From Corallococcus sp. AB032C (GTDB taxonomy: Bacteria > Myxococcota > Myxococcia > Myxococcales > Myxococcaceae): a stretch of 64,000 bases of DNA. The notes beneath the pieces are model-generated. The model worked only from the letters and a program-made list of their open reading frames with translations, was not told the origin of the DNA and did no database searches. Below are positions 55,612 through 64,000 of the stretch, piece after piece (position 1 is the first letter of the stretch; every line of letters begins with the position of its first letter). Where the stretch lies: NCBI RefSeq assembly GCF_003668935.1, contig NZ_RAWP01000027.1, positions 17,555 through 81,554 of the forward strand. Direction: 5' to 3'. A program made the translations under genes and the position numbers.

Positions 55612-55710
55612 GGTAGGGCCTCCGGACCTGGTGGCCGGCCCGGTCTTCAAAACCGGTGAGGGGCTGCGAGAGCAGTCCCTGGCGAGTTCGATTCCCGTGC
55701 CCTACCGCCA
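55612..55710 (+). tRNA. selC: tRNA-Sec (selenocysteine tRNA, anticodon UCA)
   Basis: Seen: 8-bp acceptor stem (GGTAGGGC/GCCCTACC) followed by G73 and an encoded CCA. Anticodon stem-loop CCGGT-CTTCAAA-ACCGG gives TCA. Long variable arm (GGGGCTGCGAGAGCAGTCCC), T-loop GTTCGATTCC, 99 nt. Overall collinear with E. coli selC as recalled from memory. Confidence 0.8.
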
Positions 55711-55853
55711 ATACTTCCGAGGGGTTACGCCCCACCTGCCCTGTGGATACCGTACCCTGCTGCGTCCAGGCGCGTCCAGACCAGTCCACTCGACTGCGTT
55801 ACCGCTGCGTTACTGCGCAGCAGGCAACGGCGAGGACTCAGCAACGGGCTCCC

Positions 55854-56768
55854 TTAGGGGAACATCACGTTGCCAAACACGACAGTACGCGACCCATCTT
55901 CCTCCCAGAGCTTGAGTGAGAAGGGCCCTCGGGTTGTTTCTGGTGAGGCCTCGGCTTCCACAACAACCCGACCGACGTTTCCTCCTGGAATTGGCATTCG
56001 CTGCCATACGCGGATCACCTTCAACTCCACGCCAGCCTTGCCTTTGAGCGTTGCGCCCTTCGCGAGCCATGGCTGAGCCCCGGCCTTCACGTCCAACTTG
56101 ATGTCCACCGCTACGCCCGTAGTGGAGCGATAGCTCGTGATGTAAGAGGCCGTCAGGTCACTCCCAGAGACTTGGGAGAACTCAAGGGTCACGACTTGCC
56201 CGGCCACACCACGCTCGTCCATTCCTCCGGTGGAGATCAGGCCCGCCAGCCCTCCCGGAGCATCGTGCTCGGCCATCAGTCTTGCGTTCTCATTTTGGCA
56301 GCGAAGCAATTCCGCATGCGCCTCGCGGGCTTCCTGCTGGTACGTCTCAATCGTCCGCTTTCCGCGATAGACCTCAATGAGAGACTCGGCCTTTGCCGGA
56401 TGGATCCGCAAAAGGAAGAATGCACTCAAGGGGGCTGCGCCATCCCTGAATCGCACGACCAGACGAAACCGCTCGCCTGGAGCTACACGCGACGAAGGCA
56501 CCAGTCGGATTGTGGCTTGCCCCACATCCACCAGTGCAAAGCGATCTCGCCCCTCCAACTCGACACTGTCGCGCATCAGGTCGGAATCGAAGAAGAGAGC
56601 CGTCGAGAGTCCAGAACTGATCGCGATCTCGGGGGCGACTTGAACATCGTCCGGCGACAATTCGATGCGTCGTGCGCCCGGCACCGACGCTGAACCCTCT
56701 GACTGAGCGACGGCCGTTTCGGCCACGAACAGCAGGCCCAGGAGCACGACGAAAGAAGAAGATGACAC
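55854..56768 (-). CDS. Secreted DUF2381-like protein (myxobacterial family usually paired with Ser/Thr kinases)
   Basis: Seen: signal peptide (FVVLLGLLFVAETAVAQ), 304 aa, directly downstream of a kinase gene on the same strand (26-bp gap). Family assignment is from memory. Confidence 0.55.
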   Translation of the reverse strand: MSSSSFVVLLGLLFVAETAVAQSEGSASVPGARRIELSPDDVQVAPEIAISSGLSTALFFDSDLMRDSVELEGRDRFALVDVGQATIRLVPSSRVAPGERFRLVVRFRDGAAPLSAFFLLRIHPAKAESLIEVYRGKRTIETYQQEAREAHAELLRCQNENARLMAEHDAPGGLAGLISTGGMDERGVAGQVVTLEFSQVSGSDLTASYITSYRSTTGVAVDIKLDVKAGAQPWLAKGATLKGKAGVELKVIRVWQRMPIPGGNVGRVVVEAEASPETTRGPFSLKLWEEDGSRTVVFGNVMFP

Positions 56769-56794
56769 TCGGCGATTACTCCCAGGTGGTGCTG

Positions 56795-58642
56795 TTACTC
56801 AAACTCGCTCACCGCCCTCACGTATTCGCTCGTGAAGATACGGCCATTGGAGGGTGAGTCGTTTCCGGGCTCGCGTGCCATTCCTCGTTCCCCGTCTTTC
56901 ACGTCGTAGACCTCCAGGCAGACAGGAAAACTGTCGCCCTTTGGCGTAGTCGCCGAGGTGAGTCGCCCGTAAACGCGGTCTCGCACGATTAGCCGACCAG
57001 ACAGAACTGTCCCGTGCGGCATTTCCTCCCAATCGCCGTACAAGAACACCTGGGCAGGGCCTTCCCGAACAGAAATGAATTGCGGGCGGTCACGGGTGAA
57101 AACGGCTTCGTGCCTGTCTCCAATGTCGATGCCCAGCTTCGCCATGGCCTTCACAGCACCCTTTGGGCACGGCTCCGGAGGTGGTGCCGGACGCACCTGC
57201 GGCCCTGGGCAGCCGAGCGCTGTGCAAGCCGCCGCCATTCCGACAGCACGGGCCATGACGCTCATGCCCTTCTTCGTGGGCTTCGAGGGGAGCTGAAGGG
57301 GCTGCGTCTCTTTCGGCTGCGTCGTCACGGTGGCTGAAACCTCCTGGAGCGTCGCGGGGAGAGCGACGGCCGCAGCAGTGGCCTCCGGCCCGGTGGGAGC
57401 TGCGGCGCGGTCAGCTTGAGGCGACTTGCCAGAGGGCGCTACTTCCTGACGGGTGGGGACTGGCCCTGCGACGCGCGACATCCCGAGGCCCCACGCCGCC
57501 CCTGACAGGACGAGCACCACCGCGAGCGCCGCCCAGGCGCGGAAGGCCCCACGCTGCGCAGGCGTCACACGCACGGTCGTCGCGGGCGGCGGTGTCTCAT
57601 CCGCAGCAGCCGCGTCCTCCGCTGGCACCTGTTTCTGGGGAATGCGTTTGCCGCGACGCGGGCGGTGTCGGGGTTGGTGCCGCCACTGCTCGAAGCTGTC
57701 GATGTCCTCTCCTTCCGTCGTCGCGGAATCCTCGTCGTAGGCGTCGCAGAGCGGCACGTCCCACGTCTCGTCCGCACCGCGCAGCGCCTGCTCCAGCAAC
57801 TCGCAGAGAGCCTGGGCGCTGGGCGTGCGCGCCTCGGGCGTCTTCTCCAGGAGCTGCAAGCACACGTCGCTCAGCGCCCGAGGCACCCGCTCGTTCTCCT
57901 CGTGCGGCGGTGTGGGAGGGCTGGAGAGAATCGCCTCCGTCAAGCTGGCGCCGTCCTCGCCGTCAAAGGGGAAGCGCCCCGTCAGCAGCCGGTAGGTGAC
58001 GAGTCCCAGCGCCCACAAGTCGTCCGCCGGCCCCGCTGTGTAACGGGCGTCCCTTGCCTCAAGGTGAGCACGCAGGAAGCGCCACGCCTCCGGGGAGCGG
58101 TAGTCCACCGTCCCGGGCGGGAGAATGTCCGCCGTCAGCTCGCGCGCGCCCGTGTAGTCGCCGATGCCGAAGTCCACCAGCTTGGCCAGGCCGTCCGAGG
58201 CGCGCACCATGACGTTGGCCTCCTTCACGTCCCGGTGCACCACCCCATCCGCGTGGGCAGCGGCGAGCGCCCGTGCCACGCCCAGCAGCACGCGCGTCAC
58301 CTGCCGCGCCGTGGGGTTCTCCGCGTCGGCCCACGCGTCCAGCTGACGCCCTTCCACGTACTCCGTAACGATGACGATGAATTGAGGCTGGGCCACCGGC
58401 CAGTAGCCATGGCCCAGAATCCGCACCACGTTGGGGTGATGCAGGCGAGTGAGGATGGAAACTTCGCGCTCCGCCCTCTCGCCTACGCGCGGCAGGTGCA
58501 GCAGCTTCAGAGCGAAGCGCTGGCCCTCGCAGTGCGCGAGGTACACCGTGCCGAAGCCGCCCTGCCCCAGCTGGCGCTCCACCGTGTAGCCCAGCACCTG
58601 GGCCCCAGGAGACAGCACGGCCGGAGGTGGCCCCCGCATCAT
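56795..58642 (-). CDS. Ser/Thr protein kinase (predicted active) with C-terminal non-catalytic region
   Basis: Seen: GQGGFGTVY, ALKLL, HRDVKEANVMV, DFG, SPE/APE motifs. A TM-like segment (ALAVVLVLSGAAWGL) is followed by a Cys-containing extracytoplasmic domain. Confidence 0.85.
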   Translation of the reverse strand: MMRGPPPAVLSPGAQVLGYTVERQLGQGGFGTVYLAHCEGQRFALKLLHLPRVGERAEREVSILTRLHHPNVVRILGHGYWPVAQPQFIVIVTEYVEGRQLDAWADAENPTARQVTRVLLGVARALAAAHADGVVHRDVKEANVMVRASDGLAKLVDFGIGDYTGARELTADILPPGTVDYRSPEAWRFLRAHLEARDARYTAGPADDLWALGLVTYRLLTGRFPFDGEDGASLTEAILSSPPTPPHEENERVPRALSDVCLQLLEKTPEARTPSAQALCELLEQALRGADETWDVPLCDAYDEDSATTEGEDIDSFEQWRHQPRHRPRRGKRIPQKQVPAEDAAAADETPPPATTVRVTPAQRGAFRAWAALAVVLVLSGAAWGLGMSRVAGPVPTRQEVAPSGKSPQADRAAAPTGPEATAAAVALPATLQEVSATVTTQPKETQPLQLPSKPTKKGMSVMARAVGMAAACTALGCPGPQVRPAPPPEPCPKGAVKAMAKLGIDIGDRHEAVFTRDRPQFISVREGPAQVFLYGDWEEMPHGTVLSGRLIVRDRVYGRLTSATTPKGDSFPVCLEVYDVKDGERGMAREPGNDSPSNGRIFTSEYVRAVSEFE

Positions 58643-58836
58643 GGCGACCTTCTTTCGGGCTCCCAGGCCTCTCGCATGCGGCGTCCTCCCAGCGGGGCGC
58701 GGACCCTACCAGAAGCGCGAGAAGCCCGGGAATCCCTCCCTCTGGCTGCACTCTCCAGAAAGGACTCAGGGAGTCCATTGTATTTCGCACAACCTCCAGC
58801 ATTCACTCTTAGCGAACCTTCGGTTACGCTTCCGCC

Positions 58837-59178
58837 ATGGCGCGCCCCTCCTCGCAGCCGGCCCATCCCCTCGCCAGCACCATTGGTGACGCCGCGCGAG
58901 CGGCACGCACCCGCCTGGGCCTCACCCAGGCCGAAATGGCCCAGCGCGTGGGCCTCGCGCATGCCGTCTACAGCCGCATGGAGCGAGGCCGCATGCTTCC
59001 CCGAGTCTCCACGCTCCAACGCCTGTGCGGCGCGCTGGGCGTCACCCCGGACGAACTGATGGGCCACACGCCCCCTTCCGACGACTTGCCTGCGCGGCAC
59101 CAGCTCCTCCTGCGTGTGCGCACCCTGGAGGAGCCCCAGGTGCGGGCGCTGCTGCTGTTGCTTCCCGAGTCCCGGTAG
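58837..59178 (+). CDS. XRE-family HTH transcriptional regulator (paralog 1)
   Basis: Seen: LGLTQAEMAQRVGLAHAVYSRMERGRMLPRVSTLQRLCGALGVTPDELMG, a Cro/CI-type HTH. Confidence 0.75.
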   Translation: MARPSSQPAHPLASTIGDAARAARTRLGLTQAEMAQRVGLAHAVYSRMERGRMLPRVSTLQRLCGALGVTPDELMGHTPPSDDLPARHQLLLRVRTLEEPQVRALLLLLPESR

Positions 59179-59205
59179 CGTGCCCTCGGCTACGCTGCGC
59201 CCGCC

Positions 59206-59565
59206 ATGAATGAGGAACTCGGCATCACCATCGGCACGGAGGCCCGCGCCGCCCGCCAGCACCTGGGCCTTACGCAGGCCGAAGTCGCGGAGCGCGTTGG
59301 GCTGGTGCACCCCGTCTACAACCGCCTGGAGCGCGGGAAGATGCTTCCCAGCGTCCCCTCCCTCTACCGCCTCTGCCGGGAGCTGCGGGTGTCGCCCGAG
59401 AAGCTGATGGGCCTGACGCCCACGGGCGACGTGCGCAAGGCCACGAAGCCCAAGCCCAAGGAAGAGGACGCCCCGGAGCTGCGGCGCCTCCTCCACCTCG
59501 CGCGCAAGCTGGACGCGGAGGACCTCGCGGCCCTCCTCCACGTCGCCTCGGCCCTGGCGCGCTGA
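59206..59565 (+). CDS. XRE-family HTH transcriptional regulator (paralog 2)
   Basis: Seen: LGLTQAEVAERVGLVHPVYNRLERGKMLPSVPSLYRLCRELRVSPEKLMG; about 60% identical to paralog 1 across the HTH. Confidence 0.75.
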   Translation: MNEELGITIGTEARAARQHLGLTQAEVAERVGLVHPVYNRLERGKMLPSVPSLYRLCRELRVSPEKLMGLTPTGDVRKATKPKPKEEDAPELRRLLHLARKLDAEDLAALLHVASALAR

Positions 59566-59569
59566 AGCC

Positions 59570-60739
59570 CTACTCCCGCTTCAAGCCCTCCAACTCGTGG
59601 GCCTCCAGACCCTCGGGGAAGAAGCGCTCCTCGCCGAACTCCACCTCGTCGCGAAGGACGCTGCCCTCCGCCAGCACCTGGGCCCATTCCGCTGCGGCTT
59701 CCTGCCGGCCGTAGCCCGGGTGCCGCCTCGCCAGGGCGACTCGCATCGCGTCGCGCATGTCCGCCGCCGTGGCAAATCGCTCCTCGGGTTTGGCGCGCAA
59801 CGCGACATGCAGCATCGCCTTCACGTCCGGAGATAGTGTGGCCACGGCCTCCTCGACGTCCTCCGGTCCGAAGCTCGCCAGCAGCACCTGCATTTGCGTG
59901 AGGGGCAGCGAAGGGAGGATTTCAGGCTGGAGGTGGACCAGCCCCTTGAGCGGACCCGGCACGTCCTCGACGTCGAAGAGGTGCTTGCCGGTGAAGAGTT
60001 CCACCAGCAGCACGCCCAGGCTGAAGACATCGGAGCGCGGAGTCAGGGGCTGCCGCGTCAGGTACTCCGGCGAGGCATACGCCACGTCGCCCCGGACGAG
60101 GCTCGCGGGCGACTCCTCGCGGCCCACCACCAGCGAGTAGGCCGCACCGAAGTTCGTCAGCTTCACCTCGCCTTGCGTGCCCACGTAGACATGCCGGGGG
60201 TTGACGTCGCGGTGGATGATGCCCAGCGACTTGCCGTCCGCGTCCGTCAGCGTGTGCGCGTGGTGCAGGGCCTCCGCGAGTTCCGCGCCGACGTAGAGGG
60301 CGAAGGCCTCGGAGACAGGCCGGCCGCGCGCCACCCCCGCACTCACCAGCGTCTCCAGCGAAGGGCCGTCCACATACTCCATGACGGCGTGCAGCGCGCC
60401 CTTGTGCACCTTGCGGTGAAACACGGTGGCGATGGCGGGGTGGCGCAGACGGAAGGCCAGCTGAATCTCCTCCCCCAGCCGCGTGCGCTGCATGAAGGTG
60501 GAGGGGTTCGCCAGCCGCCGCACGAAGCAATAGCTGGGCAGCTTGTTGCCGCGCTCCGTGAAGCGCTGGGCCAGCATCAGCACCTCGCCCGTCTCCATCA
60601 GCACCAGCTCGCGGACGGCTTCGTAGCGGATGCCGTCGATGGTGAAGAGGAGCAGGGGCCTCTCAGGCGTCGGCGGAAGCTGCCTGCGGCGCGCGGAGGC
60701 TTCGGTGCGCGCCAGGTCATCGGTTGTCGTGTCGGGCAT
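59570..60739 (-). CDS. Protein-kinase-like protein, predicted pseudokinase
   Basis: Seen: kinase fold (HRDVNPRHV, APE-like SPEYL) but no Gly-rich loop, HRDxKxxN degraded to HRDVNPRH, and DFG replaced by NFG. Confidence 0.65.
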   Translation of the reverse strand: MPDTTTDDLARTEASARRRQLPPTPERPLLLFTIDGIRYEAVRELVLMETGEVLMLAQRFTERGNKLPSYCFVRRLANPSTFMQRTRLGEEIQLAFRLRHPAIATVFHRKVHKGALHAVMEYVDGPSLETLVSAGVARGRPVSEAFALYVGAELAEALHHAHTLTDADGKSLGIIHRDVNPRHVYVGTQGEVKLTNFGAAYSLVVGREESPASLVRGDVAYASPEYLTRQPLTPRSDVFSLGVLLVELFTGKHLFDVEDVPGPLKGLVHLQPEILPSLPLTQMQVLLASFGPEDVEEAVATLSPDVKAMLHVALRAKPEERFATAADMRDAMRVALARRHPGYGRQEAAAEWAQVLAEGSVLRDEVEFGEERFFPEGLEAHELEGLKRE

Positions 60740-60838
60740 GGCTCCTCGGGAGGCGGGAGAGAAGGCGCGGCGGCGCCTCCCGAGGAGTTTGAGCGCAGTT
60801 AACTTTTAAAGTCCATAACGACGGACTCTAAAGAGCCA

Positions 60839-61135
60839 TCATCGCACCCGGGCGAGGGCGAAGCCTGCCCCCGCGCCGAGCACCACCGCCAGCACTACAG
60901 CCAGAACAGGGACGGGGCGCGGCTGCTGGCGGAGCACCTCGTTCTCCGCCTGGAGGCGGCGCAGCTCGCGAGCCGTGAGGATGCAGCGCTCCGTGGACAG
61001 CCAGCAGCCCTCAGCCACCACCACCGTGCGCCCGTCCTGAAGCGTCACGGTGGCGCGGGCCACATCCAGCACCTCCCCTTCGGCACGCGCCCCGCCTGCT
61101 ATCAGCAGGGCCAGCGCTAGCACCAGGCCCCTCAC
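60839..61135 (-). CDS. Small exported protein with coiled-coil segment and C-terminal TM helix (possibly spanin-like)
   Basis: Seen: N-terminal signal-like segment, ARELRRLQAENEVLRQQ, C-terminal hydrophobic helix. The start overlaps the upstream gene stop. Confidence 0.4.
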   Translation of the reverse strand: MRGLVLALALLIAGGARAEGEVLDVARATVTLQDGRTVVVAEGCWLSTERCILTARELRRLQAENEVLRQQPRPVPVLAVVLAVVLGAGAGFALARVR

Positions 61136-61641
61136 CGCTTGTCGCCCGGCTGGAGTGCATCGAGCGCGGCCACCGCCGCCGCCTTACCGGCAATCTCCCC
61201 GGCCGCCACCTCCCCCGCCTCGCGCGCCGCGTCCGCCACCGAGTCACCGAAGAGGAGCGTCTTCACCACCGTGAAGCCGCCCGCCGCCCCGAGGCCGATG
61301 GTGAGCGCCTTCAGCAGCAGGGCCACGGTGAAGGACTCGCCCGCCAGCAGCGCGTTGGACACCGCACCCGCGACGGACAGCAGCAGCGCCAGCACCGCGC
61401 CCGCCCGCGCCGTGCGCAAGAGCGGCCACCACGCGCCCACGAAGCGGCGCAGCACGTAGACGAGAGCGATGACGGCCAGGGACGCGACGAGGGCCCAGTT
61501 GCGGGCCGTCACCGCGTCGAGGATGAGGCGCGCGAAGGCCTCCATGTTGCCCGGGTCGGGCGTGCCGCTCGCCTGCGCAAAGGCGACGGAGGGGAAGACG
61601 AGGCAAAGGAAGAGGACGGCGAGACGTCGCAACATGGGCAT
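61132..61641 (-). CDS. Membrane protein with signal peptide and about three TM helices (holin-like position in a lysis-cassette-like arrangement)
   Basis: Seen: ATG at 61641 (MPMLRRLAVLFLCLVFPSVAFA), hydrophobic helices, charged C-terminus. Confidence 0.45.
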   Translation of the reverse strand: MPMLRRLAVLFLCLVFPSVAFAQASGTPDPGNMEAFARLILDAVTARNWALVASLAVIALVYVLRRFVGAWWPLLRTARAGAVLALLLSVAGAVSNALLAGESFTVALLLKALTIGLGAAGGFTVVKTLLFGDSVADAAREAGEVAAGEIAGKAAAVAALDALQPGDKR

Positions 61642-61682
61642 GCCTTTCGTGGGTGAGGCGCGGCGAAGTGCCGCGCGGGAAG

Positions 61683-62249
61683 TCAGAAGCCGAGCCGCGC
61701 CAGGGAGGCCGCGAGCGCCGGGTGCATGGCGCGCCACTCCGGCATCGAGCGCAGCGTGTCGAGGAAGCGCCAGACGGCGGCGAGCCGCTGCGCGTCCGTG
61801 CTGCCCTTTGGCTCCGAGTGGAAGAGGCCGCGCACGGGCTCCAATTGGCTGCCGCTCACGAGGCTCGGCCACTGGCAGTGCGGCGCGTCCCCGAAGGAGC
61901 CACCCCAGGCGAGGCCCGCGCTGCGCGTCTCCTCGCCAAGAATGGCGTAGGCAGGACCATCCCAGCGCGGCTGAAGTCCCGGGCGGTTCACGTCCGCATC
62001 GCGGCAGAAGTCGTTCGCCAGCCCGTAGTTGTGCGCGGAGAGTCCTTCCGGCGCCGCGCGCCCACCCTCTCCCTTCAGGTAGCGCAGGTGCAGCACGCGC
62101 TGCTCGGCGAAGGTGGAGTAGCCGCGCGTGGCGACGTAGTCCGCGCCTCGCGCTCGGCAACGGGCGATGACTTCCCCCATCACCGCCTGGAAGGGCGGAT
62201 AGAGGGGCTTCAAGTCGAGGCGGGAGAAGAGTTCAGGGTTGGGAATCAT
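61683..62249 (-). CDS. M15-family (VanY/DD-carboxypeptidase-like) zinc peptidase, endolysin-like
   Basis: Seen: LSAHNYGLANDF (H..D zinc ligands of the LAS/M15 fold), 188 aa, no signal peptide. Confidence 0.65.
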   Translation of the reverse strand: MIPNPELFSRLDLKPLYPPFQAVMGEVIARCRARGADYVATRGYSTFAEQRVLHLRYLKGEGGRAAPEGLSAHNYGLANDFCRDADVNRPGLQPRWDGPAYAILGEETRSAGLAWGGSFGDAPHCQWPSLVSGSQLEPVRGLFHSEPKGSTDAQRLAAVWRFLDTLRSMPEWRAMHPALAASLARLGF

Positions 62250-62289
62250 CCCCCACTGAATGGGGGCGGGTTTCGACGTGTGGCGTGAG

Positions 62290-63903
62290 TCACCCTTCCG
62301 CGCGGAATCGCACTCCGTCGAGGCTCACCCAGGCCGCCCCCGTGGGCAGGCTAAAAACTTGGAGGCCACCGTCCACGTTGAGCTGCCCCATGGCAAAGCC
62401 GTGGCTCGTCGGCAGTGACAGGATGCGGTTGGAGCTGGCCCGGTAGCCCACTGGGAAGCGGTACGCGTTCACGTAGCCCACCGCCCCTGGGCGGATGAGG
62501 CCGCGTGCGGACACCTCGTTGTCGCTGTTCTTGTAGAAGCCCAGGGGCCAGTTGGTCGCATCCCACGCCACCCAGCCATTCTCCAGGTCGCTAATCTGCC
62601 CCGTGCGGATGGCCGCCCACGGCTCGACGAGGCCGCCGATGCGCTCCAGGCGCACCGAATCGACGAACACCCACGGCAAGCCTTGCGTTGCATGGGCCAG
62701 CAGACGCACCTGGACGTAGCGCGTCCCGGTGGGCGCATTGTGGAAGCCTGTCGTCCGCTCCCAGCCACTCGTCGGCAGCGTTTTCGTCGTGCTCACCGTA
62801 CCCAACACGTTGAAGGCGCCGCCGTACCAGACGAGTTGGACAGAGAAGGCCGCCCCTACCTGTGACGCCCTCGCGAGGGCATCCACGCTGTACCTGTCGC
62901 CCGGCCGGGCAATCATCGCCTGCGAGTCAAGCCGCGTCCCGCTCGCCATGAGGCGGACGGCACGAGCCCCCGTGTACGCGTCCGCCGTCACCTGGGCATG
63001 CGCACCCCAGAGGCCCACGCCCATAGTCCAGGCGTCTGGCGGCAGCTCCTCGAAGGAGTGCGCCTCGAAGTCGGGGTTGGGTGGCGATTCCCCGAAGGCT
63101 ACGGCGGGCTGCAGCGTGGCGGGCGTCACATAGCCCGTCGTGACGGACACCTCGGCGGATGGCGCGCCCAGGTTGCCAGAGGCATCGCGGCCCACGACCC
63201 GGCAGTAATACGTCGCGCCGGGGCGCAGTTCGGACAACGGGAAGCGCGTCGCCGAGGCCCGCCCCTGGAAGGTGGCCTCGGAAGGCTGGAAGCCCGGCGT
63301 TCGCGACGCATGCACCTCGTACTCGGCCCAGGCTGGGCCGGTAGTCGCAGGGGTCCACGTCACCACGCACCCGTTGACGGTCGGCACCGCCCTCACCTCC
63401 TGCGGCGCGGCCGGGCCCGTGAAGGCCGCGCTGGGAGCGATGCCCGGTCGACTGTCACGCTCCAGCCACTCACGCAGCGAGGTAGAAGGCTGGCCGCGCA
63501 GCACCAGTTTCATGCGCGCCGTGCCGTCCGTGGCGCACTGGTGCTCCAGCTCCTGCACCGCAAGCCGCTGCGCCGTGTCCAACCGCACGCCATCCGGAAG
63601 CACGAGCACCAGGTCCGCCAGCTCCAGGCCCGGGTGCGGATCCACCGTCATGGTGACGGCGAGGGGAGAGACGGAGAGATCCGCGATGGCCGCGTCCGCG
63701 AGCCGTTGCGCTTCGGGCTCCGTGTCGATGTTGCTGGAGGACTCCTCCGCCACCTGCATCCAGCGGCGGCCCACCTGCGCGCGAGCCGTGGGGTTGCTGG
63801 CCGCCACCGTCTTTCGCTTCGGTGTTCCCGAGGCGTCCAAATCGTATTTGTCGCTGTAGACGACTTCGACGTCCGTGCGGATGTCCGCCAACTGCCGCGT
63901 CAT
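62290..63903 (-). CDS. Phage tail-fibre/host-specificity-like protein with fibronectin type III domain
   Basis: Seen: FN3 segment (CVVTWTPATTGPAWAEYEVHASRTPGFQP...YYCRVVGRDASGNLGAPSAEVSVTT), 537 aa, directly upstream and co-directional with the peptidase/holin-like genes. Confidence 0.45.
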   Translation of the reverse strand: MTRQLADIRTDVEVVYSDKYDLDASGTPKRKTVAASNPTARAQVGRRWMQVAEESSSNIDTEPEAQRLADAAIADLSVSPLAVTMTVDPHPGLELADLVLVLPDGVRLDTAQRLAVQELEHQCATDGTARMKLVLRGQPSTSLREWLERDSRPGIAPSAAFTGPAAPQEVRAVPTVNGCVVTWTPATTGPAWAEYEVHASRTPGFQPSEATFQGRASATRFPLSELRPGATYYCRVVGRDASGNLGAPSAEVSVTTGYVTPATLQPAVAFGESPPNPDFEAHSFEELPPDAWTMGVGLWGAHAQVTADAYTGARAVRLMASGTRLDSQAMIARPGDRYSVDALARASQVGAAFSVQLVWYGGAFNVLGTVSTTKTLPTSGWERTTGFHNAPTGTRYVQVRLLAHATQGLPWVFVDSVRLERIGGLVEPWAAIRTGQISDLENGWVAWDATNWPLGFYKNSDNEVSARGLIRPGAVGYVNAYRFPVGYRASSNRILSLPTSHGFAMGQLNVDGGLQVFSLPTGAAWVSLDGVRFRAEG

Positions 63904-64000
63904 CCCATCGAGGTTGCCGTACTCGTCCGGACCGTAGCTCCAGTCCTCCTCCGTCTGGAGTCGGTTGGGCGCGGCGAGCGTCAGTGCGTAGGCGCTTGCA

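What the first reader, a model, noticed from the sequence alone, without database searches (positions are those of the whole stretch)
60839..64000. Phage-like late/lysis block: FN3 tail-fibre-like protein, M15 endolysin-like peptidase, holin-like membrane protein and small coiled-coil membrane protein, all co-directional
Four consecutive minus-strand genes with the order tail-fibre-like, endolysin-like (zinc D-Ala-D-Ala peptidase fold, no signal peptide), 3-TM membrane protein, small membrane protein. The last two overlap by ATGA. This matches the canonical order of phage late regions. No capsid, terminase or integrase gene is seen, and the block runs off the window. It could be a prophage remnant, a tailocin or phage-tail-like bacteriocin, or a predation/lysis device.
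Basis: partly seen in the sequence, partly recalled or inferred. Interest (0 to 1): 0.5.

Follow-up and report, generated by a model that had tools for sequence, protein, structure and literature searches.

The report
Prophage tail-tip and lysis genes
The four genes are the last genes of the late operon of a roughly 40-kb tailed prophage inserted next to the selenocysteine tRNA gene of a Corallococcus-like myxobacterium; this is an ordinary kind of element, but its two small membrane proteins belong to uncharacterised families.

Summary
The "537-aa" gene is cut by the window edge. Its frame stays open to base 63999, and relatives encode about 800 aa. It is a tail-tip hub protein (gp27/Tal/J-like fold, then FN3, then a carbohydrate-binding-like sandwich), not a fibre. 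The overlap between the last two genes is GTGA, not ATGA.

The M15 protein is a cytoplasmic Ply500/LysB4-type L-Ala-D-Glu peptidase. The next protein has a signal peptide plus three transmembrane segments. The 98-aa protein has a type-I signal, a beta-hairpin, a helix and a C-terminal anchor.

In the closest relative (Corallococcus coralloides; 95% aa identity in the tail protein, 87% nt over 11.7 kb), the 10 kb upstream encode protease, HK97-type capsid, connectors, tail tube and tape measure. More distant copies add portal, terminases, primase-helicase, PolA and integrase. The 3' 66 nt of tRNA-SeC (window 55645-55710) recur just beyond that integrase.

So this is a temperate siphovirus-type prophage at tRNA-SeC, not a tailocin. 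The holin assignment is inferred. The 98-aa protein fails the spanin definitions. The prophage end also carries Ser/Thr-kinase, XRE and DUF2381 cargo genes.

The parts
62290..64000 (-). 3' part (569 of about 800 codons) of the tail-tip hub / host-recognition protein (Tal/J-like). The gene runs off the window.
   Evidence: The frame is open to 63999. It is 94.6% identical to L001:9905-11611, inside an 800-aa ORF. The full-length homologue hits phrog_1887 'tail protein' at E=4e-9. An AF2 model of the 800-aa homologue P0001 has pLDDT 85. Foldseek matches the model to gp27/Mu gp44/MuSo2/80alpha Tal/lambda J/T1 tip proteins.
63448..63999 (-). C-terminal part of the gp27-like hub domain (residues about 232-415 of the 800-aa protein).
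   Evidence: Domain limits come from the AF2 model. Hub-fold matches reach TM(target) 0.70-0.77 over about 400 columns, for example 3d37, 8fqc_C1 and 6u5h. Coordinates are approximate.
63142..63408 (-). Fibronectin type III domain.
   Evidence: Pfam PF00041, E=6e-8, residues 166-254 of the 537-aa numbering.
62635..63045 (-). Beta-sandwich resembling carbohydrate-binding modules (CBM4/CBM16-like); probable receptor-binding part.
   Evidence: Foldseek matches 2y64, 3jxs, 2y6j and 2zey with TM(target) 0.68-0.76 over 154-174 columns. Assignment of those hits to this stretch is inferred from the model's secondary structure. Coordinates are approximate.
62293..62595 (-). C-terminal beta domain of the tail-tip protein (residues about 700-800); function unknown.
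   Evidence: AF2 secondary structure with pLDDT 86-93. There is a weak phrog_26792 hit (E=0.0024, unknown function).
61683..62249 (-). Endolysin: M15/LAS zinc peptidase of the Ply500/LysB4 (L-alanyl-D-glutamate endopeptidase) type. It has no export signal.
   Evidence: Pfam Peptidase_M15_4. PHROG endolysin families at 2e-10, 5e-7 and 4e-5. tblastn hits to phage endolysins, including Listeria A500 Ply500. PDB 2vo9 and 6akv match at E about 1e-5, with the SxHxxGxAxD and DxPH motifs aligned. No hydrophobic segment. dN/dS 0.06-0.16.
61132..61641 (-). Holin candidate: 169-aa membrane protein with a signal peptide, three TMDs (predicted N-out/C-in) and a charged C-terminal tail.
   Evidence: Hydropathy. 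It is conserved in all five relatives with dN/dS 0.14-0.32. The family is found only in Myxococcaceae and is annotated as hypothetical. It has no Pfam, PHROG, PADLOC or PDB match. Homologues again sit beside M15 genes in other phage backgrounds (L040, L043; more weakly L041).
60839..61135 (-). 98-aa last gene of the late operon, overlapping the holin candidate's stop codon (GTGA; translational coupling is inferred). It has a type-I signal peptide, a beta-hairpin, a conserved GCWLSxxRC motif, an LRAEN helix and a C-terminal TMD.
   Evidence: AF2 pLDDT is 77. dN/dS 0.07-0.26. The family has 394 representative clusters at E<=1e-3. Of 119 members examined, all have a C-terminal TMD and 4 have a lipobox-like motif.
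60803..60833 (-). AT-rich palindrome directly after the stop codon of the 98-aa gene. It may mark the operon end or act as an operator.
   Evidence: It forms a hairpin in the fold of 60760-60860 (z=-2.7). The core AAGTCC…GGACTT is kept in 7 of 8 related loci. It is not followed by a T-run, so it is not a canonical intrinsic terminator.
55854..60739 (.). Cargo module between the lysis genes and the attachment site: Ser/Thr kinase (59570-60739, -), two XRE regulators (59206-59565 and 58837-59178, +), Ser/Thr kinase (56795-58642, -) and DUF2381 protein (55854-56768, -).
   Evidence: Pfam. The module is part of the DNA shared by all related elements, and homology ends at about 55,850. The same module lies at the prophage end in Myxococcus.
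55612..55710 (+). tRNA-SeC gene. Its 3' 66 nt (55645-55710) are the left attachment-site core.
   Evidence: ARAGORN and Rfam RF01852 at 70.5 bits. The 66 nt recur (91% identical, same orientation) at L021:14124-14189, just beyond the integrase of a related copy. Copies in L001, L037, L038 and L046 also abut tRNA-SeC.

Best explanation
The block is the distal end of the late operon of a temperate, siphovirus-type (non-contractile tail) prophage of about 40 kb, integrated into the 3' end of the tRNA-SeC gene of a Corallococcus-like myxobacterium.

Proposed mechanism, gene by gene:

1. The tail-tip protein is truncated by the window. It is the trimeric tail-tip hub that follows the tape-measure and distal-tail proteins. 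Its FN3 domain, carbohydrate-binding-like sandwich and C-terminal domain probably recognise a surface glycan on the host.

2. The M15 enzyme accumulates in the cytoplasm, because it has no export signal. It cuts the L-Ala-D-iGlu bond of the peptidoglycan stem peptide once the inner membrane is breached.

3. The 169-aa protein (N-out/C-in, three TMDs) is the most likely holin, the protein that makes that breach.

4. The 98-aa protein is translationally coupled to the holin candidate and anchored in the inner membrane, with a 55-residue periplasmic head. It most likely acts with the holin candidate, either in lysis timing or in the final envelope-disruption step.

What is shown and what is inferred:
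- Shown here: gene content, folds, synteny, the attachment repeat and purifying selection.
- Inferred: the holin role, the role of the 98-aa protein, the bond cleaved by the peptidase, and the completeness of this particular copy beyond base 64000.
For: Context:
- The window is collinear at 87% nt identity over 11.7 kb with C. coralloides KYC2213 (L001).
- The 10 kb upstream in L001 encode prohead protease, HK97-type major capsid, head-tail adaptor and connectors, major tail protein, an 892-aa tape measure, a 275-aa protein and the 800-aa hub.
- IMG/VR proviruses whose capsid is 97% identical to that of L001 add small and large terminase, portal, a sigma factor and primase-helicase. A third, related IMG/VR provirus (capsid 91% identical to L001's; L011/L020/L021) adds a PD-(D/E)XK nuclease, PolA, a RuvC-like resolvase and a tyrosine integrase (phrog_1, E=2e-12).

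Attachment site:
- The 66-nt 3' part of tRNA-SeC is repeated just beyond the integrase.
- Several relatives also lie at tRNA-SeC.
- Ordinary chromosomal genes lie on the other side of the tRNA.

Tail protein: fold matches to phage, T6SS and CIS hubs and to lambda J and T1 tip proteins.

Endolysin.

Lysis-cassette reading of the two membrane genes:
- They are a conserved pair across diverged phage-like contigs.
- They always lie at the end of the late genes.
- They sit directly after an M15 gene in the window, in L001-L005, and behind a different tail module in L040 and L043.
- All four genes are under purifying selection.
Against: - The window itself contains no head, packaging or integrase gene, so whether this copy is complete cannot be known.
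- In M. xanthus and M. stipitatus relatives the M15 gene is missing, yet the two membrane genes remain. They are therefore not strictly tied to an endolysin.
- Neither membrane protein matches any known holin, antiholin or spanin family.
- A cleavable signal peptide is unusual for a holin.
- No canonical spanin is present. A scan of the coding strand over 60700-62400 found no lipoprotein ORF.
- The periplasmic part of the 98-aa protein looks too short to span the periplasm.
Confidence: 0.85

Rival explanations
1. It is a defective prophage remnant. The genes derive from the phage described above, but this copy can no longer excise or form particles. The tail, lysis and kinase end is kept because the cargo genes, or the lysis genes themselves, benefit the host.
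For: - M. xanthus copies are visibly decayed. IS21 elements interrupt the tail module (L043, L046), and the endolysin gene is absent in L037, L038 and L046.
- The element is multi-copy in some genomes: two copies in C. coralloides KYC2213 and three or more in M. xanthus DK1622.
- The window gives no information upstream of base 64000.
Against: - The nearest relative, L001, has an uninterrupted head-to-tail gene string.
- dN/dS of the structural and lysis genes is 0.06-0.32.
- A related copy has an integrase and an intact attachment repeat.
Confidence: 0.25
2. The two small membrane proteins are not lysis proteins. They are lysogenic-conversion or superinfection-exclusion proteins expressed from the prophage, and the true holin lies elsewhere.
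For: - The pair persists in copies that lack the M15 gene.
- Both proteins carry Sec-type signals, which is unusual for holins.
- They have no similarity to known lysis proteins.
- Some relatives carry an extra small gene before the endolysin, with one TMD plus a coiled coil. That gene could be the real holin (L040, L043, L045).
Against: - In the window and in L001-L005 no other membrane protein lies near the signal-less endolysin.
- The pair is co-oriented with the late operon and tightly packed against it, with overlapping stop and start codons.
- The pair accompanies M15 genes behind unrelated tail modules.
Confidence: 0.2
3. It is a phage-tail-like bacteriocin (F-type tailocin) or a dedicated predation or autolysis device of the myxobacterium.
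For: - Only tail and lysis genes are visible in the window.
- Myxobacteria are predators and lyse during development (general knowledge).
Against: - Relatives carry capsid, protease, portal, both terminases, replication genes and an integrase in one collinear block.
- The element is bounded by a tRNA attachment repeat.
- It sits at different chromosomal sites in different genomes.
Confidence: 0.03

Closest known systems
Holin-endolysin-spanin lysis cassettes of phages of Gram-negative hosts (lambda S-R-Rz/Rz1; T1 holin-endolysin-gp11)
   Same: - The genes are clustered at the end of the late genes.
- The cassette combines a signal-less muralytic enzyme with a small multi-TMD protein.
- The last gene encodes a small envelope protein with a C-terminal TMD.
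- Stop and start codons overlap.
   Different: - The order is endolysin first.
- The holin candidate has a cleavable signal peptide and no known family.
- There is no i-spanin/o-spanin pair.
- The last gene lacks the lipobox that defines u-spanins, and it has two periplasmic cysteines. None of the 58 u-spanins surveyed in PMC6139136 has a periplasmic cysteine.
Ply500 (Listeria phage A500) and LysB4 endolysin catalytic domains; CwlK; M15/LAS L-alanyl-D-glutamate peptidases
   Same: - About 30% identity over about 110 residues.
- The SxHxxGxAxD and DxPH zinc/catalytic motifs align.
- It is annotated as a phage endolysin in PHROGs.
   Different: - There is no C-terminal cell-wall-binding domain of the Gram-positive type.
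- Instead there is a 50-residue C-terminal extension of unknown role.
- The host is diderm.
- The bond specificity has not been measured.
Tail-tip hub proteins: T4 gp27, Mu gp44 / MuSo2 43-kDa protein, siphophage Tal (80alpha), lambda gpJ, T1 tip protein
   Same: - The N-terminal half, about 400 residues, has the hub fold (TM up to 0.77).
- The gene lies after the tape-measure gene and a 275-aa protein, at the position where siphoviruses usually encode the distal tail protein (no family match).
- FN3 domains occur as in gpJ (phrog_31).
   Different: - Sequence identity is only 8-16%.
- The C-terminal half combines FN3, a CBM-like sandwich and a novel domain.
- No separate fibre or receptor-binding gene follows it.
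Myxophages and Mx alpha (Myxococcus xanthus)
   Same: - The host clade is the same.
- The prophage is multi-copy and strain-variable.
- It carries cargo relevant to social behaviour (PMC6070905).
   Different: - No sequenced phage in the INPHARED collection matches the tail protein.
- No myxophage is among the listed capsid or endolysin hits.
- Mx alpha is described as units of about 80 kb giving tail-less particles at 2.1-2.25 Mb of DK1622.
- This element is about 40 kb, encodes a tail, and lies at tRNA-SeC (about 5.46 Mb in M. xanthus CP017170).

Membership tests
Temperate tailed prophage (Caudoviricetes, siphovirus-type) | Head, packaging and tail morphogenesis genes in one collinear block | tested here: met
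   Met in relatives only. L001 has protease, major capsid, adaptor/connectors, major tail and tape measure. L006 has terS, terL and portal. The window itself shows only the last tail gene.
Temperate tailed prophage (Caudoviricetes, siphovirus-type) | Integrase plus direct repeat of the attachment core at both ends | tested here: met
   The left end is in the window: tRNA-SeC, with core 55645-55710. The right-end repeat and the integrase were seen in related copy L021. They cannot be tested for this copy.
Temperate tailed prophage (Caudoviricetes, siphovirus-type) | Excision and particle production | not testable with these tools
   Needs induction experiments.
Peptidase M15 / LAS endolysin (Ply500 type) | Profile match above the curated threshold, and conserved H-x6-D … H zinc motif | tested here: met
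   PF13539 scores 25.8 bits against a cutoff of 25, so it passes only just. Independent support comes from PHROG endolysin families and from PDB 2vo9 and 6akv, with the motifs aligned. The roles of the motifs as zinc ligands come from general knowledge of LAS enzymes.
Peptidase M15 / LAS endolysin (Ply500 type) | Cleavage of the L-Ala-D-Glu bond of peptidoglycan | not testable with these tools
   Needs a muropeptide analysis.
Holin (class I-like) | Small membrane protein with at least one TMD and a charged C-terminal tail, encoded next to the endolysin | tested here: met
   It has three TMDs after a signal peptide and a charged tail, and it is adjacent to the M15 gene.
Holin (class I-like) | Membership of a described holin family | tested here: not met
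   No significant Pfam, PHROG or PDB match. The only hits are non-significant: TrbC at E=0.007, below the cutoff, and phrog_16123 at E=0.09.
Holin (class I-like) | Timed lethal permeabilisation of the inner membrane that releases the endolysin | not testable with these tools
   Needs expression experiments.
Unimolecular spanin (T1 gp11 type) | N-terminal outer-membrane lipoprotein signal with a lipobox cysteine | tested here: not met
   There is no cysteine in the signal region of the window protein or of its seven aligned orthologues. Only 4 of 119 family representatives have a lipobox-like motif. The definition is taken from PMC6139136.
Unimolecular spanin (T1 gp11 type) | C-terminal TMD; last gene of the lysis cassette | tested here: met
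Two-component spanin (Rz/Rz1 type) | An i-spanin with an N-terminal TMD and periplasmic coiled coils, plus an o-spanin lipoprotein that is embedded, overlapped or adjacent | tested here: not met
   No lipobox ORF of at least 25 aa lies on the coding strand between 60700 and 62400. The window has no gene with an N-terminal TMD plus a coiled coil. Some relatives have such a gene upstream of the endolysin.
Phage-tail-like bacteriocin (tailocin) | Tail and lysis genes without capsid or packaging genes | tested here: not met
   Capsid, portal and terminase genes are present in relatives. This is not testable for the window's own copy.
gp27-like tail hub / Tal | Hub fold, and gene position after the tape-measure gene and one further tail gene (275 aa, no family match; the usual position of a distal tail protein) | tested here: met
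   AF2 pLDDT 85 and Foldseek probability 1.0, with TM(target) 0.6-0.77 to many hub proteins. Gene order is from L001.

The most novel reading that the evidence does not exclude
The signal-peptide-bearing three-TMD protein and the translationally coupled protein of about 100 aa form a previously undescribed two-gene lysis module of Myxococcota phages. The small protein has a type-I signal, a disulfide-stapled beta-hairpin, an LRAEN helix and a C-terminal anchor. The small-protein family alone comprises at least 394 sequence clusters. In this reading the module takes the place of canonical spanins or antiholins, and the small protein would be a new class of outer-envelope-disruption or lysis-timing factor in a host with an unusual envelope.
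Probability: 0.25. Interest if true: 0.55.

Novelty: new member of a known kind. Interest (0 to 1): 0.3.

Why it matters
As a prophage end, this is ordinary biology. It still has some value:

1. It defines a family of tailed temperate phages of Corallococcus and Myxococcus that use tRNA-SeC as the attachment site. No relative was found among the sequenced phages searched. Few myxophages have been characterised.

2. It gives a testable lysis cassette for a diderm host in which no canonical spanin is present.

3. It shows that Ser/Thr-kinase, XRE and DUF2381 gene clusters are carried at the end of these prophages, next to the lysis genes. In M. xanthus such clusters have been linked to yellow/tan phase variation. 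This suggests that those regulators are phage cargo.

Tried and rejected
- An exact-sequence look-up of the 537-aa product found nothing, as expected for a truncated ORF.
- tblastn of the tail protein against 50,697 phage records gave no match.
- An IMG/VR scan with the tail protein gave no relative. The capsid of L001 had to be used instead.
- Pfam did not recognise the integrase at E<=0.001. PHROGs did.
- I suspected that the 178-aa protein upstream of the membrane pair in metagenome contig L045 is a cysteine-peptidase endolysin. Pfam, PHROGs and the PDB sequence search gave nothing, so I dropped the claim.
- I guessed that the M. xanthus copy at tRNA-SeC corresponds to MXAN_4479-4481. It could not be verified, because no DK1622 names appear in those clusters, so I do not assert it.
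- The Mx alpha identity was rejected on size, particle type and map position.
- PADLOC hits of the two kinases to PD-T4-6 are at the level of the generic kinase domain. I did not take them as evidence of a defence system.
- The promoter and terminator scan found nothing meaningful in the block.
- The weak TrbC/VirB2 hit of the membrane protein (E=0.007, below the cutoff) was treated as noise.


Full report
**Observation**

The window has about 70% G+C. Four co-directional minus-strand ORFs lie between 60839 and the window end.

- The first ORF was reported as 537 aa. No stop codon lies between its ATG at 63903 and base 63999.
- The 32 extra codons align with homologues, giving 94.6% identity over 569 residues to L001.
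- In L001 the same frame is an 800-aa ORF, and all full-length homologues are 796-805 aa or longer. The window therefore cuts this gene.
- The last two genes overlap by GTGA, with a GTG start, not ATGA.
- All four genes are conserved in five related loci, with pairwise dN/dS of 0.06-0.32. They are real genes under purifying selection.

**Where the block sits**

A scan of one genome per species found five related loci. They are two in Corallococcus coralloides KYC2213, and one each in C. praedator, C. exercitus and a Myxococcaceae MAG. The window is collinear with L001 over 11.7 kb at 87% nt identity.

The 10 kb upstream of the tail gene in L001 encode the following:
- a prohead protease and an HK97-type major capsid protein (phrog_617, E=3e-42);
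- a head-tail adaptor and two connector proteins;
- a major tail protein and an 892-aa tape-measure protein;
- a 275-aa protein, followed by the 800-aa protein.

IMG/VR holds predicted proviruses whose capsid is 88-97% identical to that of L001.
- Upstream of the capsid these carry portal, large and small terminase, a sigma-factor-like gene and a divergent primase-helicase.
- In one of them (capsid 91% identical to L001's; loci L011, L020, L021), a PD-(D/E)XK nuclease and a family-A DNA polymerase follow.
- Further on in the same provirus lie a RuvC-like resolvase and a tyrosine integrase (phrog_1, E=2e-12).

**Attachment site**

Homology between the window and all five loci stops near 55,850. 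A tRNA-SeC gene lies at 55612-55710 (ARAGORN; Rfam 70.5 bits).

- Its 3' 66 nt (55645-55710) recur at 91% identity, in the same orientation, at L021:14124-14189. That is about 100 nt beyond the integrase gene and just before unrelated sacsin-like and NERD-helicase genes. This is the classic signature of integration into the 3' end of a tRNA gene.
- The copies in L001 and in three M. xanthus loci also abut tRNA-SeC.
- L003 has only the partial tRNA copy at this end, which suggests tandem elements at the site.
- L002, L004 and L005 lie elsewhere in their genomes.
- To the left of the tRNA the window carries ordinary chromosomal genes: a methyltransferase, a DUF3857/transglutaminase protein, a TPR-zincin protein and GroEL. 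The same neighbourhood flanks the M. xanthus copies.

Adding the distances measured in L001 and in the related IMG/VR provirus (L011/L020/L021) gives an element of roughly 40 kb.

**The tail protein**

An AlphaFold2 model of the full-length homologue P0001 (91% identical to the window fragment, 53-sequence alignment) has mean pLDDT 85.

- Residues 1 to about 415 match baseplate-hub and tail-tip proteins. Matches include the Neisseria and MuSo2 43-kDa tail proteins, Mu gp44, T4 gp27, R2 pyocin hub, phage Milano and 80alpha hub/Tal, lambda J, the T1 tip protein, and VgrG and CIS spikes. TM(target) reaches 0.77 at probability 1.0.
- Among viral models the matches are siphophage minor tail, Tal and receptor-binding proteins.
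- The full-length sequence hits phrog_1887 'tail protein' at E=4e-9.
- An FN3 domain follows, then a beta-sandwich matching CBM4 and CBM16 modules, then a further beta domain.

The protein is thus the tail-tip hub with a built-in receptor-binding extension, not a fibre. The family is confined to Myxococcaceae genomes and is annotated only as an 'FN3 domain protein'.

**The endolysin**

- The 188-aa protein passes the Pfam threshold for Peptidase_M15_4, though only just.
- It matches three PHROG endolysin families and endolysins of Bacillus, Listeria and Clavibacter phages.
- It matches the solved L-alanyl-D-glutamate peptidases Ply500 (2vo9) and LysB4 (6akv), with the SxHxxGxAxD and DxPH motifs aligned.
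- It has no hydrophobic segment, so it needs a holin to reach the wall.

**The two membrane proteins**

The 169-aa protein:
- It has a signal-like segment (…AFA|QA), three TMDs and a charged tail.
- Variants in L040 and L043 lack the signal peptide but keep a short N-terminal tail. This is consistent with an N-out/C-in, lambda-S-like class I topology.

The 98-aa protein:
- It has a short h-region with AxA-type cleavage motifs, a beta-hairpin and a conserved GCWLSxxRC turn.
- A 23-residue helix with an LRAEN motif follows, then a Pro-rich linker and a C-terminal TMD.
- A profile search over 1.84 billion representative proteins found 394 clusters at E<=1e-3, nearly all 95-115 aa long.
- All 119 members examined have the C-terminal TMD, and only 4 have a lipobox-like motif.

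By the definitions in PMC6139136, the 98-aa protein is therefore not a u-spanin. No o-spanin-like ORF is present, and the periplasmic head of about 55 residues looks too short to bridge the periplasm. Neither protein matches any Pfam, PHROG, PADLOC or PDB entry.

Genomic context supports a lysis role but does not prove it:
- The pair follows an M15_4 gene behind a different tail module in Myxococcus sp. AM011 and in M. xanthus (L040, L043).
- A weak homologue of the 169-aa protein follows an M15_3 gene in a myovirus-like metagenome contig (L041).
- Homologues of both proteins close the late gene block in two further phage-like contigs (L044, L045).
- Against this, M. xanthus L037, L038, L046 and L047 and M. 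stipitatus L039 keep the pair but lack the M15 gene.
- Some relatives carry an additional gene before the endolysin with one TMD plus a coiled coil. That gene could be a holin or an i-spanin-like protein.

I put the holin assignment at about 0.6. I put a direct lysis role for the 98-aa protein at about 0.5, with its mechanism open.

**Comparison with known systems, and verdict**

The element is a new member of a well-known kind: a temperate siphovirus-type prophage at a tRNA gene, with a late operon ending in tail-tip and lysis genes.

- It is not related to sequenced myxophages at the level searched.
- It does not fit the description of Mx alpha.
- A tailocin reading is excluded for the relatives.
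- Whether the copy in this window is intact cannot be decided from 64 kb.

**Side observation**

The DNA between the lysis genes and the tRNA carries kinase, XRE, XRE, kinase and DUF2381 genes. This module is conserved at the prophage end across genera.

In M. xanthus DK1622:
- The homologues of the holin candidate are MXAN_2174, MXAN_1229 and MXAN_4846.
- The 98-aa homologue is MXAN_2175.
- An M15 copy is MXAN_4847.
- These genes lie a few locus tags from MXAN_2177, MXAN_1234 and MXAN_4841.

MXAN_2177, MXAN_1234 and MXAN_4841 are three of the four near-identical kinase paralogues reported as 35- to 46-fold down-regulated in tan phase variants (PMC3986340). That paper does not mention phage.

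Noticed in passing
window 55854-60739; L043:6722-12467; L037, L039, L040, L046: The Ser/Thr-kinase, XRE and DUF2381 cargo module lies directly after the lysis genes at the prophage end in Corallococcus and Myxococcus. In M. xanthus DK1622 the homologues of the holin candidate and of the 98-aa protein are MXAN_2174 and MXAN_2175, with paralogues of the former at MXAN_1229 and MXAN_4846 and an M15 copy at MXAN_4847. These sit a few locus tags from MXAN_2177, MXAN_1234 and MXAN_4841. Those three are kinase paralogues reported as 35- to 46-fold down-regulated in tan phase variants (PMC3986340), in a paper that does not mention phage. The phase-variation kinase clusters therefore look like repeated prophage-end cargo. 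Adjacency is inferred from locus-tag numbers and from the gene order in L043.
   Followed up: partly
window 60803-60833 and about 60742-60790: An AT-rich palindrome (CTTTAGAGTCCGT…ATGGACTTTAAAAG) follows the stop codon of the 98-aa gene. Its core AAGTCC/GGACTT is conserved in 7 of 8 related loci. A second long palindrome (CTCCTCGGGAGG…CCTCCCGAGGAG) covers the ribosome-binding region of the downstream kinase gene. Either could be an operator, a terminator or a translational control element.
   Followed up: partly
L037:9907-10001, L038, L046, L047, L039:9647-9931: The M15 endolysin gene is absent from the M. xanthus copies, where a 94-nt gap separates the tail gene from the membrane gene. In M. 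stipitatus a 94-aa Cys-rich single-TMD gene takes its place. The two membrane genes are retained in both cases.
   Followed up: partly
window 58837-59178 and 59206-59565: The two XRE-family regulator genes are a diverged tandem duplicate (214 nt at 71% identity). They are transcribed opposite to the flanking kinases.
   Followed up: no
L039:15614-17965; L040:14537-16709: In M. stipitatus and Myxococcus sp. AM011, a Tox-REase-5 / Imm52 polymorphic toxin-immunity pair follows the kinase/DUF2381 module at the prophage end.
   Followed up: no
L003:18166-18254: At the DUF2381 end, the C. praedator copy has only the 3' partial tRNA-SeC segment and no complete tRNA. This suggests that another element is integrated in tandem at the same site.
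   Followed up: no
L001:3545-4720 (minus strand); L037:1399-2454; L039:1423-2136: A gene of variable size (237-391 aa) with no family match lies on the opposite strand inside the head-tail joining and tail-tube module. It is a candidate moron.
   Followed up: no
L043:1-1579; L046:73-2450: IS21-family elements (rve/IstB) interrupt the tail modules of two M. xanthus copies. This shows that these copies are decaying.
   Followed up: no
L006:7545-8450 (minus strand): An Mrr_cat restriction-endonuclease-like gene lies on the opposite strand between the portal and protease genes of an IMG/VR relative.
   Followed up: no
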